Origin: Escherichia coli
GTDB taxonomy: Bacteria > Pseudomonadota > Gammaproteobacteria > Enterobacterales > Enterobacteriaceae
Assembly: GCF_024502345.1 (NCBI RefSeq)
Contig: NZ_JALDNN010000001.1
Length of the DNA stretch: 64,000 bases
Direction: 5' to 3' (one strand)
The translations under genes and the position numbers were made by a program. The notes under the pieces were generated by a model. That model was not told the DNA's origin. It was given only the letters and a program-made list of their open reading frames with translations, and made no database searches. Shown piece after piece: positions 50,493 through 55,690 of the stretch. Positions within the stretch are counted from its first letter, which is position 1, and the number at the start of each line of letters is the position of its first letter.

Positions 50493-51152
50493 TTACAGCG
50501 GGCTTAAGGTAATTTCTACACGGCGGTTTTGCGCCTTACCTTCTGCGGTGCTGTTGCTGGCGATTGGGTTAGCCGGGCCAAGGCCCTGAGTACGGATGCG
50601 GCTGGCGTCCACGCCCTGGGTGATCAACGCGCTGGCAACGGAATCCGCACGTTGCTGGGAGAGACGCATGTTCAGGTCGTGACCACCCGTGCTGTCGGTA
50701 TAACCAATCACGTTAACCGCCGTTTTCGGATACTCTTTCAGCACCATTGCCACGCCGGTCAGGGTGTTAGCGCCCGCAGGTTTCAGGGTCGCGCTGCTGC
50801 TGTCGAAGGTCACGTTGTTCGGCATATTGAGGATAATGTTATCCCCGCTGCGGGTTACGCTAACACCAGTGCCGCGCATTTTGTCACGCAGCTTCGCTTC
50901 CTGCACATCCATGTAATAACCAACGCCGCCGCCCAGAGCTGCGCCTGCTGCTGCGCCAATCAGCGCGCCTTTACCGCGATCTTTCTTCGAAGAAGAGAGC
51001 GCACCAATACCCGCGCCCACGAGAGAGCCCAGACCTGCGCCGATAGCAGATTTACCTGCTTCGCGTTCGCCGGTGTAAGGGTTAGTTGTGCAGCCAGATA
51101 CCGCCAGAGCGCCACTCACTACGGCGGCAATAAGATAAACACGTTTCTTCAT
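50493..51152 (-). CDS. yiaD: OmpA-family lipoprotein YiaD
   Basis: 219 aa, lipobox VSGC, Gly-rich linker, OmpA-like C-terminal domain. Confidence 0.88.
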   Translation of the reverse strand: MKKRVYLIAAVVSGALAVSGCTTNPYTGEREAGKSAIGAGLGSLVGAGIGALSSSKKDRGKGALIGAAAGAALGGGVGYYMDVQEAKLRDKMRGTGVSVTRSGDNIILNMPNNVTFDSSSATLKPAGANTLTGVAMVLKEYPKTAVNVIGYTDSTGGHDLNMRLSQQRADSVASALITQGVDASRIRTQGLGPANPIASNSTAEGKAQNRRVEITLSPL

Positions 51153-51304
51153 TGTTAATCCTTAATAACCTTTTTATTCTTTGCCACGGGTTCCGTGGCG
51201 GGAGATTATGCCGCGTGAACATGAAGATTATTCCTGGGAATACTCGGAAATTTGTAAGTAATATTTAACTGCTCAATACATCTAACCTTTCAGGAGTCTT
51301 CGGT

Positions 51305-53638
51305 TTGGCCAACTCATCCTCACGATATTCCGTTCTGACTGCCGCCCATTGGGGGCCCATGCTGGTTGAAACCGACGGCGAAACCGTGTTTAGCTCGCGT
51401 GGCGCGTTAGCCACAGGAATGGAAAACTCCTTGCAGAGCGCGGTTCGCGACCAGGTTCACAGCAATACGCGGGTACGATTTCCAATGGTGCGCAAAGGCT
51501 TTCTCGCGTCACCGGAAAACCCGCAAGGCATTCGTGGGCAGGATGAATTTGTTCGCGTGAGTTGGGATGAGGCGCTGGATCTTATTCACCAACAACATAA
51601 ACGCATTCGTGAGGCTTATGGTCCGGCATCGATTTTTGCTGGTTCCTACGGCTGGCGTTCAAACGGCGTGCTGCATAAGGCCTCGACATTATTACAACGC
51701 TATATGGCGCTGGCAGGCGGTTATACCGGGCATCTGGGGGATTATTCGACCGGCGCGGCACAGGCGATCATGCCGTATGTCGTGGGTGGTAGTGAAGTTT
51801 ATCAACAGCAGACCAGTTGGCCGCTGGTGCTGGAACATAGCGATGTCGTGGTGCTGTGGAGTGCTAACCCACTCAATACGCTGAAAATTGCGTGGAATGC
51901 ATCCGATGAGCAGGGGCTTTCTTACTTTTCTGCACTGCGTGACAGCGGGAAAAAGCTGATCTGCATTGATCCAATGCGATCGGAAACCGTCGATTTCTTT
52001 GGCTATAAAATGGAGTGGGTGGCACCGCACATGGGCACCGATGTTGCGCTGATGCTGGGGATCGCCCATACGCTGGTGGAAAATGGTTGGCACGACGAAG
52101 CGTTTCTGGCGCGTTGCACCACAGGTTATGCCGTCTTCGCCTCTTATTTGCTGGGCGAGAGTGACGGAATAGCGAAAAACGCCGAATGGGCGGCAGAGAT
52201 TTGTGGTGTTGGCGCAGCGAAAATCCGCGAGCTGGCGGCTATTTTCCACCAAAATACCACCATGCTGATGGCAGGCTGGGGAATGCAGCGCCAACAGTTT
52301 GGTGAGCAAAAACACTGGATGATCGTCACGCTGGCAGCAATGTTGGGGCAAATCGGCACACCCGGCGGCGGTTTTGGTCTTTCTTACCATTTTGCCAATG
52401 GTGGTAACCCCACGCGGCGCGCTGCGGTACTCTCTTCCATGCAGGGCAGCTTGCCGGGTGGCTGCGATGCGGTAGATAAAATCCCTGTCGCCCGCATTGT
52501 TGAAGCACTGGAAAACCCTGGTGGCGCATATCAACACAACGGTATGAACCGACATTTCCCGGATATTCGTTTTATCTGGTGGGCGGGCGGTGCCAACTTT
52601 ACTCATCATCAGGATACCAATCGCCTGATCCGTGCCTGGCAAAAACCGGAGCTGGTGGTGATCTCTGAATGCTTCTGGACGGCGGCGGCAAAACACGCGG
52701 ATATCGTTCTGCCTGCGACTACCTCTTTTGAGCGTAATGATCTCACCATGACCGGTGATTACAGTAATCAGCATCTGGTGCCGATGAAGCAAGTGGTGCC
52801 GCCACGCTATGAAGCGCGTAATGATTTTGATGTTTTTGCCGAGTTAAGTGAACGCTGGGAGAAGGGCGGTTATGCACGTTTTACGGAAGGAAAAAGTGAG
52901 CTGCAATGGCTGGAAACGTTTTATAACGTTGCCCGACAGCGCGGGGCAAGCCAGCAGGTTGAATTGCCGCCATTTGCTGAGTTCTGGCAAGCCAATCAGT
53001 TAATTGAGATGCCGGAAAACCCGGACAGCGAGCGGTTTATTCGCTTCGCTGATTTTTGCCGCGATCCGCAGGCGCATCCATTAAAAACCGCCAGCGGTAA
53101 GATTGAAATCTTCTCGCAGCGTATTGCCGATTACGCTTATCCGGATTGCCCGGGGCATCCAATGTGGCTGGTGCCGGACGAATGGCAGGGCAATGCCGAA
53201 CCGGAACAGTTACAGGTACTTTCTGCTCATCCGGCGCATCGTCTGCACAGCCAGCTGAATTACAGTTCTCTGCGCGAATTGTACGCGGTGGCAAACCGTG
53301 AGCCTGTCACCATTCATCCTGACGATGCCCAGGCGCGCGGCATACAAGATGGCGATACTGTTCGGCTGTGGAACTCACGCGGGCAAATTCTTGCCGGAGC
53401 GGTCATTAGCGAGGGAATTAAACCTGGCGTGATTTGCATTCACGAAGGGGCATGGCCGGATCTGGATTTAACCGCTGACGGTATTTGTAAAAACGGCGCA
53501 GTGAACGTGCTGACCAAAGATCTCCCCAGCTCGCGGCTGGGGAATGGCTGTGCGGGTAATACGGCGCTGGCATGGCTAGAAAAATACAACGGCCCGGAAC
53601 TGACACTTACAGCGTTTGAACCACCGGCCAGCTCATAA
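51305..53638 (+). CDS. bisC: Biotin sulfoxide reductase (molybdoenzyme)
   Basis: 777-aa ORF of the DMSO reductase family. Confidence 0.93.
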
Positions 53639-54047
53639 TCCAGGTGGGTAGTTGGGTTTCATCCTGCCATGCGCAATCGACAATGTGAAAACCCTGCGCC
53701 TGGTAAAAATCTATCGCCGGTTGATTTTTTTGATAAACCTCCAGCATCAGATGGGGATGGCGCTGTTGCACATACTGCATCAGCGCCTTACCAATACCGC
53801 GCCTGACGGCCTTCGGTGCGACAAACATCGCTGCCAGAAATCGGCCTTCCATAATGCTGACAAAACCGAGAAGCTTACTGTCTTCTTCCCAGACCCAGTT
53901 TTGTGCGTTGGCAAGATAGGCATCCCGCACCAGTGGAATGCACTCGCGCCAGTAATTCGCTTTTATAAAGGGATGGCCCCAGGTTGTACTTTCCAGCCAC
54001 AGTTCGAGGATCGCGGGGAGTTCTGAACGTTGCGCTTCCCTAATCAT
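53607..54047 (-). CDS. yiaC: GNAT-family N-acetyltransferase YiaC
   Basis: 146 aa; convergent with bisC, 3' ends overlap by 32 bp. Confidence 0.85.
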
Positions 54048-54607
54048 GGTTTATTTCCCGGATAGCAACAGCAGCCAACCACATGATCATTCACCAGCCC
54101 ACATGCCTGCATAAAGGAGTAACAGATTGTGGTACCGACAAACTTAAAACCACGTTTTTTCAGTGCCTTAGATAGGGCGTCGGAGGCGGGCGTAGATGTG
54201 GGGATTTCGCTCAACGTTGTGGCTTGTGTCACCTGTGGCTGATGATTTACAAACGACCAGACAAAGTCGGCAAACGGTTCGCCGTTCTGTTCCATTTGCA
54301 GGTACGCCCGCGCATTACCAATAATTGCCTGAATTTTCCCGCGATGGCGGATAATCCCGGCGTCCTGTACCAGTCTTTCGACATCCTCTTCCTGCATTGC
54401 GGCAACCTTCACCGGATCGAACTGATGAAAGCAGGCGCGATAGTTTTCGCGTTTTTTGAGGACGGTGATCCACGATAACCCAGCCTGCTGCCCTTCCAGG
54501 CAGATCATTTCGAACAGTTTTTTACTGTCAGTTTCAGGCACGCCCCACTCATTATCATGGTAGGCAATATAAAGCGGGTCCTGACTCACCCAGCCGCAAC
54601 GTTCCAT
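54044..54607 (-). CDS. tag: DNA-3-methyladenine glycosylase I
   Basis: 187 aa from MERCGWVSQDPLYIAYHDNEWGVPETD; ORF-track entry has a 55-codon upstream extension. Confidence 0.93.
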   Translation of the reverse strand: MERCGWVSQDPLYIAYHDNEWGVPETDSKKLFEMICLEGQQAGLSWITVLKKRENYRACFHQFDPVKVAAMQEEDVERLVQDAGIIRHRGKIQAIIGNARAYLQMEQNGEPFADFVWSFVNHQPQVTQATTLSEIPTSTPASDALSKALKKRGFKFVGTTICYSFMQACGLVNDHVVGCCCYPGNKP

Positions 54608-54697
54608 ACTTTCCCTCGCTATGTACCCGATCGTAAAAATTTCAGCCGCTTTTCTTGACGCATCGGTGAAAAAGTCAATATTTAATACAGGGCTACT

Positions 54698-55462
54698 ATG
54701 CCCGATATCCTTCATACAATGACAATAATATTGCCGAATTCGGCTCTTCCCTGGAGTCGTGTTAATGATCATAAAAAAAGCGGTGGTCGCTGGCAGCTAA
54801 GCCTGCTGGCGAGTGTGGTAATCAGTGCCTTTTTTCTCAACACAGCTTACGCCTGGCAACAAGAATATATCGTTGATACGCAACCCGGGCATTCCACAGA
54901 GCGTTACACCTGGGATAGTGAACATCAACCTGATTACAACGATATTTTGTCGCAACGTATTCAAAGTAGCCAAAGGGCGCTGGGACTGGAAGTCAATCTG
55001 GCGGAAGAAACCCCTGTGGATGTGACCAGCAGTATGAGTATGGGCTGGAATTTTCCTTTATATGAACAGGTTACAACTGGCCCGGTCGCGGCATTACATT
55101 ACGATGGCACAACCACCTCGATGTATAACGAGTTTGGCGACAGTACTACCACGCTGACCGATCCGTTATGGCATGCCAGCGTGAGTACCTTAGGCTGGCG
55201 TGTTGACTCCCGGCTTGGCGAGCTCCGACCCTGGGCGCAAATCAGCTATAACCAGCAATTTGGCGAGAATATCTGGAAGGCGCAATCAGGCCTGAGCCGG
55301 ATGACGGCGACAAACCAGAACGGCAACTGGCTGGATGTCACCGTAGGCGCTGATATGTTGCTCAATCAAAATATTGCCGCCTATGCCGCGCTATCTCAGG
55401 CAGAAAATACCACTAACAATAGCGATTATCTGTATACGATGGGGGTTAGTGCCAGATTTTAA
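54698..55462 (+). CDS. yhjY: YhjY (autotransporter-like outer-membrane protein); start codon uncertain
   Basis: Open frame of 254 codons ending in a C-terminal Phe. The best-RBS ATG (54765) is out of frame by 1 nt across an A7 tract; in-frame ATGs at 54698 and 54719 have weak RBS. Confidence 0.6.
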   Translation: MPDILHTMTIILPNSALPWSRVNDHKKSGGRWQLSLLASVVISAFFLNTAYAWQQEYIVDTQPGHSTERYTWDSEHQPDYNDILSQRIQSSQRALGLEVNLAEETPVDVTSSMSMGWNFPLYEQVTTGPVAALHYDGTTTSMYNEFGDSTTTLTDPLWHASVSTLGWRVDSRLGELRPWAQISYNQQFGENIWKAQSGLSRMTATNQNGNWLDVTVGADMLLNQNIAAYAALSQAENTTNNSDYLYTMGVSARF

Positions 55463-55690
55463 CGTAACAATCACAATTGAAACCATTGGATAACAATAGT
55501 TGTGGCGATAGTGGGTGCTAACTTACCAAATAATAAATTTGGTGAATAATTGTCGCGTCATTCATTCCTGAACTAAGGCATTTCATTCCGTTCTGATGGC
55601 ATTTCATGCCGTTTTTCCCCAGGCATAAAGTGCACTTCGTTATGGTTGTCGGCAGAGATTTTTCCTTTTTATTACTGCAGGAATACTGCC

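What the first reader, a model, noticed from the sequence alone, without database searches (positions are those of the whole stretch)
53607..53638. Convergent 3' overlap of bisC and yiaC
The stop codons of bisC (plus strand) and yiaC (minus strand) lie 32 bp inside each other's coding sequence, with no room for terminators. Transcription of one gene must read into the other, which creates potential for antisense or transcriptional-interference coupling.
Basis: seen in the sequence. Interest (0 to 1): 0.2.

Follow-up and report, generated by a model that had tools for sequence, protein, structure and literature searches.

The report
Conserved bisC–yiaC 3' gene overlap
Two real E. coli genes on opposite strands, bisC and yiaC, share their last 32 base pairs; the overlap is old and well conserved, is already in the standard annotation and in a published list of overlapping transcripts, and has no demonstrated regulatory role.

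Summary
bisC (51305..53638, +) and yiaC (54047..53607, -) overlap by 32 bp (53607..53638), exactly as RefSeq annotates them in K-12 and in a strain 100% identical to the window over the 1.3 kb compared.

- **Both ends are real.** BisC aligns with solved DMSO/TMAO reductases up to residue 774-775 of 777. YiaC's last beta-strand (133-140) is conserved across its family.
- **The overlap is ancient.** 79 of 80 Enterobacteriaceae species examined (about 20 genera) have it, at 32, 38 or 23 bp. Synonymous sites inside it are almost frozen.
- **It is tolerated because constraints are staggered.** Each protein's conserved C-terminal element lies opposite the other's permissive tail.
- **"No room for terminators" is only half right.** Published bicyclomycin data place a Rho-dependent stop for the tag-yiaC transcript about 250 nt inside antisense bisC. 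A terminator-like hairpin also lies 63 nt past the yiaC stop.
- **The pair is already catalogued.** It is one of 165 convergent "excludons" reported for MG1655, and E. coli has about 75 convergent CDS overlaps.

Regulatory coupling between the two genes is plausible but untested. Verdict: real, ordinary, already known; low interest.

The parts
51305..53638 (+). bisC CDS (biotin / methionine-S-sulfoxide reductase, 777 aa, TTG start, TAA stop)
   Evidence: ORF. RefSeq annotation. Pfam Molybdopterin and Molydop_binding domains. phmmer against PDB aligns residues 7-775 with TorZ/MtsZ 7l5i and DMSO reductases, which end 3-4 residues later.
53607..54047 (-). yiaC CDS (GNAT lysine acyltransferase, 146 aa, TAA stop)
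   Evidence: ORF. Annotation. GNAT Pfam hits. Orthologues of 146-148 aa. AF2 model with mean pLDDT 94.9, last strand at 133-140 and a low-confidence tail at 141-146.
53607..53638 (.). 32-bp dual-coding overlap. It holds YiaC I137(3rd base)[13 protein letters not shown] and BisC (L768 2nd-3rd base)[13 protein letters not shown].
   Evidence: Conserved as 32, 38 or 23 bp in 79 of 80 species. Third-position entropy is 0.23 against 1.25 for yiaC and 0.65 against 1.34 for bisC.
54044..54607 (-). tag CDS, upstream gene of the tag-yiaC operon. Its stop overlaps the yiaC start by 4 bp (ATGA).
   Evidence: Also noted in PMC6199490.
53522..53544 (-). Terminator-like hairpin on the yiaC strand, 63 nt past the yiaC stop and inside bisC codons D-L-P-S-S-R-L-G-N. 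It has a 9-bp stem followed by AUCUUUGGUC.
   Evidence: Present in most genera but lost in Klebsiella and Raoultella. Covariation is inconclusive. It is more stable than 97.7% of synonymous recodings, which is not significant after 22 segment tests.
53330..53606 (-). C>G (rut-like) stretch of the yiaC-strand RNA downstream of the yiaC stop. It ends near the published Rho-termination peak at MG1655 3714344, which maps to about window 53355.
   Evidence: C/G is 1.15-1.69 in 80-nt windows. Adams et al. 2021 supplementary file 2 gives a Rho score of 7.30 and p = 5.5e-14, classed 'antisense bisC'.

Best explanation
bisC and yiaC are two genuine convergent genes whose coding sequences share their last 32 bp.

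Shown:
- Both stop codons are real and conserved.
- The overlap exists in nearly all Enterobacteriaceae examined.
- More distant tag-yiaC operons have no bisC next to them.
- Inside the overlap, synonymous sites of both genes are nearly invariant.
- The invariant YiaC residues (W136, M138, W140, the end of the last GNAT beta-strand) lie opposite the variable last three residues of BisC.
- The invariant BisC residues (A770, F771, P773, P774) lie opposite a low-confidence, disordered-looking YiaC tail that four species truncate.

Inferred: the overlap is a frozen arrangement. It probably arose when bisC came to lie against the 3' end of tag-yiaC. It persists because separating the genes would need a duplication of the shared segment.

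Transcription:
- There is no intergenic DNA, so each mRNA must run into the antisense of the other gene. This follows from the geometry.
- Published data show that the tag-yiaC transcript continues about 250 nt into antisense bisC and is stopped there by Rho.
- Inferred mechanism: ribosomes leave at the yiaC stop, the C-rich untranslated RNA loads Rho, and an embedded hairpin may help define or protect the 3' end.
- bisC has no recognisable terminator inside yiaC or tag, so it is presumably stopped by Rho or by polymerase collision (inferred).

The complementary 3' ends make the pair a convergent 'excludon' in the descriptive sense. Any regulatory effect is unproven and, I judge, probably small.
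For: - Overlap and annotation.
- BisC homology to solved reductases up to residue 774-775 of 777.
- YiaC orthologues are 146-148 aa with an invariant PTW.M.W motif.
- Distant homologues (32-45% identity) keep W140 and end 2-10 residues later.
- AF2 places the last strand at 133-140 and gives the tail a mean pLDDT of about 60.
- 79 of 80 species have the overlap (32 bp x44, 38 bp x32, 23 bp x4), with the bisC stop fixed relative to the yiaC start.
- Third-position entropy is 0.23 against 1.25 for yiaC (p = 6e-6) and 0.65 against 1.34 for bisC (p = 1.7e-4). At most 0.7% of flanking 32-nt windows are as conserved as the overlap.
- Outgroup tag-yiaC loci lack bisC.
- Rho termination region at MG1655 3714344 (+), antisense to bisC.
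- C>G stretch downstream of the yiaC stop.
- Listing as a convergent excludon.
Against: - No 3' end was mapped for either gene in the curated Term-seq table, so the exact transcript ends are unknown.
- The Rho peak comes from 800-nt comparison windows and is imprecise.
- The 'frozen accident' reading is an inference. Conservation of the adjacency could equally reflect selection for coupled expression.
- The origin by bisC insertion rests on only two outgroup lineages of unknown taxonomy.
Confidence: 0.8

Rival explanations
1. The overlap is a selected regulatory device, a true excludon. Transcription of tag-yiaC represses bisC and vice versa, through RNase III cleavage of the 3' duplex or through polymerase collision. 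Expression of the two genes would then be mutually exclusive, for example under oxidative stress.
For: - The pair is in the MG1655 excludome.
- The adjacency and overlap are kept in 79 of 80 species.
- The excludon paper reports higher synteny for excludon pairs in general.
- YiaC is reported to be upregulated under oxidative stress (PMC6199490), and BisC repairs oxidised methionine and biotin (my own knowledge of Ezraty et al. 2005).
- A precedent for functional 3' antisense crosstalk exists in mscL-arfA (PMC10070815).
Against: - No expression data for this pair were found.
- Conservation is fully explained by dual-coding constraint.
- Intestinirhabdus alba lost bisC and kept yiaC unchanged.
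- Read counts in the published data are low, about 90 reads per 800 nt. Collisions and duplex formation should therefore be rare.
- Any CDS overlap automatically satisfies the ExcludonFinder criterion.
Confidence: 0.15
2. The hairpin at 53544..53522, embedded in bisC, is the real terminator of the tag-yiaC operon, either intrinsic or as a 3'-end protector. It is maintained by selection on bisC synonymous sites.
For: - It matches the terminator scan.
- It gives a stable 9-bp stem.
- It is kept in most genera, with a few double changes such as CCCCAGC/GCUGGGG to GCCCAGU/ACUGGGC.
- It is more stable than 97.7% of synonymous recodings.
Against: - The U-tract is weak.
- No Term-seq 3' end is reported there.
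- Bicyclomycin raises downstream reads about five-fold, so much of the termination is Rho-dependent.
- The covariation score is no better than the slid controls.
- The hairpin is lost in Klebsiella and Raoultella.
- There is no strand asymmetry.
- The recoding p-value of about 0.02-0.03 does not survive 22 tests.
Confidence: 0.15
3. Annotation artefact: one of the two genes really ends earlier, or is not a gene, and there is no true overlap.
For: None found. Pfam domain envelopes stop before the C-termini (YiaC at 123, BisC at 741), which on its own could suggest loose tails.
Against: - The stop codons are facts of the sequence.
- BisC aligns with solved homologues to within 2-3 residues of its end.
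- YiaC residues 134-140 are invariant and form the last beta-strand.
- Both stop positions are conserved across about 20 genera.
- Both proteins have been studied experimentally.
Confidence: 0.01

Closest known systems
Convergent (tail-to-tail) overlapping gene pairs of bacteria, long-overlap class with codon positions 1-1, 2-3, 3-2 ('phase 1')
   Same: Two real CDSs on opposite strands share their 3' ends. The phase is the one reported as commonest among convergent overlaps longer than 4 nt (bioRxiv 10.1101/2025.11.07.687268). E. coli has 75 convergent overlapping pairs among 663 overlapping adjacent pairs (PMC4161906).
   Different: Nothing categorical. At 32 bp it exceeds the 4-nt overlaps that make up most convergent overlaps, and it is documented here as stable over about 20 genera.
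Convergent excludons (overlapping 3' transcripts of neighbouring genes; ExcludonFinder map of E. coli MG1655)
   Same: yiaC-bisC is explicitly listed among the 165 convergent excludons. The termination signal of one gene lies inside the transcription unit of the other.
   Different: In the classical excludon the overlap lies in UTRs, and reciprocal expression has been shown. Here the overlap includes coding sequence, and no reciprocal expression has been shown.
mscL-arfA convergent pair of E. coli (3' antisense crosstalk with RNase III processing)
   Same: Convergent neighbours with complementary 3' ends in the same organism (PMC10070815).
   Different: For mscL-arfA, regulation and RNase III cleavage were demonstrated. 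For bisC-yiaC nothing of the kind has been tested.
Rho-dependent termination of read-through antisense transcription downstream of a stop codon
   Same: There is a bicyclomycin-sensitive drop in coverage on the yiaC strand about 250 nt past the stop. It is preceded by C>G untranslated RNA.
   Different: The rut-like region and the stop site are entirely inside the coding sequence of the opposing gene.

Membership tests
Convergent overlapping protein-coding gene pair | Both ORFs are genuine protein-coding genes | tested here: met
   Pfam domains, PDB homologues, orthologue families, a high-confidence AF2 model of YiaC, and published biochemistry of YiaC.
Convergent overlapping protein-coding gene pair | Opposite strands, with 3' ends sharing nucleotides including both stop codons | tested here: met
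   53607..53638 is shared and is identical in the RefSeq annotations.
Convergent overlapping protein-coding gene pair | The overlap is conserved in orthologous loci and is not a strain-specific stop-codon accident | tested here: met
   79 of 80 species have an overlap of 32, 38 or 23 bp. Synonymous sites in it are depleted of variation.
Excludon (convergent) | Transcripts from both strands overlap in vivo | not testable with these tools
   Taken from the literature only. The pair is listed in at least 50% of 58 RNA-seq sets, and a Rho region lies inside antisense bisC. The geometry makes at least 32 nt of overlap unavoidable.
Excludon (convergent) | Reciprocal (mutually exclusive) expression of the two genes | not tested
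   No expression data were available, and no paper addresses the question.
Excludon (convergent) | RNase III-dependent processing of the duplex or transcriptional interference | not testable with these tools
   The supplementary tables of the excludon paper are not held.
Bidirectional intrinsic terminator between convergent genes | A single GC-rich hairpin flanked by an A-tract and a U-tract, placed between the two stop codons | tested here: not met
   There is no DNA between the stops. The only hairpin (53522..53544) lies 63 nt past the yiaC stop and upstream of the bisC stop, with a weak U-tract on one strand only. No hairpin precedes the T-run at about 53722-53730 on the + strand.
Rho-dependent terminator (yiaC strand) | Bicyclomycin-sensitive read-through | not testable with these tools
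   Published values: upstream/downstream reads of 90/23 without BCM and 60/112 with BCM, Rho score 7.30, p = 5.5e-14 at MG1655 3714344.
Rho-dependent terminator (yiaC strand) | C-rich, G-poor untranslated RNA upstream of the stop region | tested here: met
   C/G is 1.15-1.69 over about 280 nt after the yiaC stop, falling below 1 beyond about window 53386.

The most novel reading that the evidence does not exclude
The overlap, conserved at family level, is maintained for function and not only locked in by dual coding. On this reading, tag-yiaC and bisC form a reciprocal switch acting through their complementary 3' ends. The switch would link DNA-alkylation repair and lysine acylation with repair of oxidised methionine and biotin. 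The hairpin embedded in bisC would be a selected 3'-end element written into synonymous sites of the opposing gene.
Probability: 0.12. Interest if true: 0.4.

Novelty: already known. Interest (0 to 1): 0.12.

Why it matters
The value is mainly practical and illustrative.

- **Genetics.** A deletion of either gene that removes its last codons also damages the other gene. The engineered ΔbisC strain BE104 keeps the shared segment, which leaves yiaC intact. Phenotypes assigned to bisC or yiaC knockouts should be checked for this.
- **Evolution.** The locus is a clean example of how a 3'-3' overlap can persist for a very long time. Each protein's constrained C-terminal element is placed opposite the other's permissive tail.
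- **Transcription.** It is a simple case of an operon terminated by Rho inside the coding sequence of its convergent neighbour.

None of this opens a new question.

Tried and rejected
- **Known RNAs.** An Rfam scan of 51000-55500 at E <= 1 found no family, so no known sRNA or antisense RNA explains the junction.
- **Whole-junction folding.** Folding both strands gave z-scores of 0.46 and 0.08, so there is no unusual structure.
- **Terminator for bisC inside yiaC.** The T7 run at about 53722-53730 is the antisense of the conserved YiaC Q-K-N codons. It has no preceding hairpin in any species, so I rejected it.
- **Hairpin 53522..53544.** I tested covariation, synonymous recoding and strand asymmetry. 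The results are suggestive but not significant after multiple testing.
- **Distant bisC contexts.** Searching with BisC C-terminal fragments returned only frameshifted assemblies or torZ-type paralogues, so I dropped that route. The outgroup state came from distant YiaC homologues instead.
- **Papers and supplements not held.** The supplementary tables of Dar & Sorek 2018, Conway 2014 and ExcludonFinder, and the Keio paper, were not available.
- **Outgroup terminators.** A terminator scan of the intergenic DNA after yiaC in the outgroups was uninformative.

Full report
**1. Observation**

The window carries bisC on the + strand, 51305..53638, with a TTG start and a TAA stop at 53636-53638. It carries yiaC on the - strand, 54047..53607, with a TAA stop on the complement of 53607-53609. 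The two coding sequences share 53607..53638, which is 32 bp including both stop codons. Codon positions pair 1-1, 2-3 and 3-2.

Over the 1.3 kb tested (53000-54300), the window is 100% identical to E. coli FDAARGOS_943. The locus is present at 95% identity or more in 5421 of 5426 complete E. coli genomes. RefSeq annotates the same overlap in that strain and in K-12 MG1655, where yiaC is 3713652..3714092 and bisC is 3714061..3716394.

**2. Are both ends real?**

- **BisC.** It has the Molybdopterin and Molydop_binding domains. It aligns with solved homologues up to residue 774-775 of 777, including TorZ/MtsZ 7l5i and the Rhodobacter DMSO reductases, and those chains end 3-4 residues later.
- **YiaC close orthologues.** YiaC is a GNAT protein. 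Its orthologues are 146-148 aa and share a nearly invariant C-terminal motif P134-T135-W136-x-M138-x-W140.
- **YiaC distant homologues.** Homologues at 32-45% identity still keep W140 and then end after 2-10 unconserved residues.
- **YiaC structure.** An AlphaFold2 model (mean pLDDT 94.9) places the last beta-strand at 133-140. Residues 141-146 have no secondary structure and low confidence.

The refuting condition, that one gene actually ends earlier, is not met.

**3. Conservation**

A scan of one genome per species returned 80 loci encoding YiaC orthologues. In 79 of them bisC converges on yiaC and overlaps it: by 32 bp in 44 species, 38 bp in 32 and 23 bp in 4. The bisC stop is always at the same distance from the yiaC start. 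Only the yiaC stop moves. About 20 genera are covered, including Escherichia, Salmonella, Citrobacter, Klebsiella, Raoultella, Enterobacter, Kluyvera, Kosakonia, Lelliottia, Shimwellia, Siccibacter and Atlantibacter.

The single exception is Intestinirhabdus alba. It has lost bisC, so yiaC is followed directly by yiaD, yet its YiaC still ends in ...WQADQTP. In two more distant lineages, whose YiaC is 40-45% identical, the tag-yiaC operon exists without bisC. About 0.5 kb of non-coding DNA follows yiaC there. The overlap therefore most likely dates from the arrival of bisC next to tag-yiaC in an ancestor of the Enterobacteriaceae. This is an inference from only two outgroups.

**4. Dual-coding constraint**

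Entropy at third codon positions was measured across the 80 sequences that carry the overlap (79 of the scanned species plus K-12).

| Gene | Inside the overlap | Preceding 300 nt | Mann-Whitney p |
|---|---|---|---|
| yiaC | 0.23 | 1.25 | 6e-6 |
| bisC | 0.65 | 1.34 | 1.7e-4 |

Only 0.7% of 32-nt windows in the yiaC flank, and none in the bisC flank, are as conserved as the overlap.

The constraints are staggered.
- The invariant YiaC residues I/M/W 137-140 are encoded opposite the variable BisC tail A[S/N][S/A/P]-stop.
- The invariant BisC residues A770, F771, P773 and P774 are encoded opposite the YiaC tail, whose consensus is QADQTP.
- That tail is truncated in four species by a CAA to TAA change, or an equivalent one.
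- In E. coli itself the tail has become PVVQTL. The underlying changes are synonymous or conservative in BisC: D772E, and two silent proline codon changes.

Much of the apparent conservation of the YiaC tail is thus imposed by BisC. I read the overlap as a tolerated, locked-in arrangement.

**5. Transcription**

- **Read-in is unavoidable.** With no intergenic DNA, each mRNA must include antisense sequence of the other gene.
- **Intrinsic terminator scan.** The consensus scan found one terminator-like hairpin on the yiaC strand at 53544..53522. It lies 63 nt past the yiaC stop and inside bisC codons DLPSSRLGN.
- **How good is the hairpin evidence?** The hairpin is retained in most genera with a few double compensatory changes, but it is lost in Klebsiella and Raoultella. 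Its covariation score does not exceed the slid controls. It is more stable than 97.7% of synonymous recodings, but that is about 1 in 22 segments tested, and there is no strand asymmetry. The evidence for selection is inconclusive.
- **Rho termination on the yiaC strand.** Adams et al. 2021 (PMC7815308, supplementary file 2) list a Rho termination region on the yiaC strand, classed 'antisense bisC', with its peak at MG1655 3714344. Upstream/downstream reads are 90/23 without bicyclomycin and 60/112 with it. The Rho score is 7.30 and p = 5.5e-14. The peak is 252 nt past the yiaC stop, which maps to about window 53355.
- **A rut-like stretch precedes it.** The yiaC-strand RNA between the stop and that point is C-rich and G-poor, with C/G of 1.15-1.69. 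This fits Rho loading on untranslated RNA.
- **What is missing.** No curated Term-seq 3' end is reported between 3710464 and 3717247. No Rho region is listed on the bisC strand.
- **bisC strand.** Downstream of the bisC stop the only feature is a T-run, which is the antisense of the conserved YiaC Q-K-N codons. It has no preceding hairpin in any species.
- **No known RNA family.** Rfam has no match in 51000-55500.

**6. What is already known**

- ExcludonFinder (PMC12288877) lists yiaC-bisC among 165 convergent excludons found in at least 50% of 58 MG1655 transcriptomes. Any CDS overlap satisfies its criterion automatically, and the pair was not studied individually.
- Huvet and Stumpf (PMC4161906) count 75 convergent overlapping pairs in E. 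coli.
- The phase found here is the one reported as commonest among convergent overlaps longer than 4 nt.
- Functional antisense crosstalk between convergent neighbours has a precedent in mscL-arfA (PMC10070815).
- Polymerase collision has been proposed as a way of terminating convergent pairs (bioRxiv 10.1101/2022.10.23.513370).
- Christensen et al. 2018 note the 4-nt tag-yiaC overlap but not the bisC overlap.

**7. Verdict**

'No room for terminators' needs qualifying, because termination signals lie inside the partner's coding sequence. The feature is an ordinary member of a known class. It is already annotated and already catalogued as a transcriptional overlap.

What this analysis adds is modest:
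- the depth of conservation;
- the staggered-constraint explanation for why the overlap is tolerated;
- the link to a published Rho site.

A selected regulatory role is not excluded, and I put it at about 0.12-0.15, but nothing here requires it.

Noticed in passing
window 54044..54047; loci L003-L082: yiaC is overlapped at both ends. In Escherichia and a few other species the tag stop overlaps the yiaC start by 4 bp (ATGA). In most other genera the tag-yiaC overlap is 23 bp (56 loci), and it is also seen at 11, 20 and 1 bp. The tag stop therefore drifts while the yiaC start stays fixed.
   Followed up: partly
L086 (E. coli BE104, NZ_CP040643.1) 2917..3000: This strain carries an engineered bisC deletion with a Datsenko-Wanner FRT scar. 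The right end of the deletion lies 8 bp outside the yiaC stop, so the whole shared segment and yiaC are preserved. This shows why the overlap matters when designing knockouts. A deletion of either gene that left only its last 21 nt would cut into the other gene.
   Followed up: partly
L056 (Intestinirhabdus alba) 4001..4716: This is the only species of 80 without bisC next to yiaC. yiaC is followed by about 270 nt and then yiaD, and YiaC keeps the usual ...WQADQTP end. I did not check the 270 nt for bisC remnants.
   Followed up: no
window 53607..53638 (proteins P0001, P0004, P0005): Rare E. coli YiaC variants of 193-202 aa arise from stop loss or frameshifts inside the overlap. They read on through antisense bisC, and the same mutations would also change the BisC C-terminus. 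Some may be sequencing errors: P0001 is a singleton, while P0004 has 41 members and P0005 has 11.
   Followed up: partly
window 53613..53632: E. coli proper differs from the other Escherichia clades and other genera inside the overlap. BisC has D772E plus two silent proline codon changes. The same changes turn the YiaC tail from QADQTP into PVVQTL.
   Followed up: partly
window 51305: bisC is annotated with a TTG start codon, both in this strain and in the ORF list.
   Followed up: no
window 54044..54772: The longest ORF containing tag is 242 aa, starting from an upstream ATG. The annotated Tag protein, which matches Pfam, is 187 aa and starts at MERCGW (54607).
   Followed up: no
about window 57019 onward (L001 7520..8301): In the matching strain FDAARGOS_943 an IS4-like ISEc60 transposase gene lies downstream of yhjX. 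K-12 has eptB after yhjX at that position.
   Followed up: no
window 53722..53730 (+ strand): A run of seven T on the bisC strand lies about 85 nt past the bisC stop. It is the antisense of the invariant YiaC codons Q106-K107-N108. A T-rich version is present in most species, but none has an upstream hairpin.
   Followed up: yes
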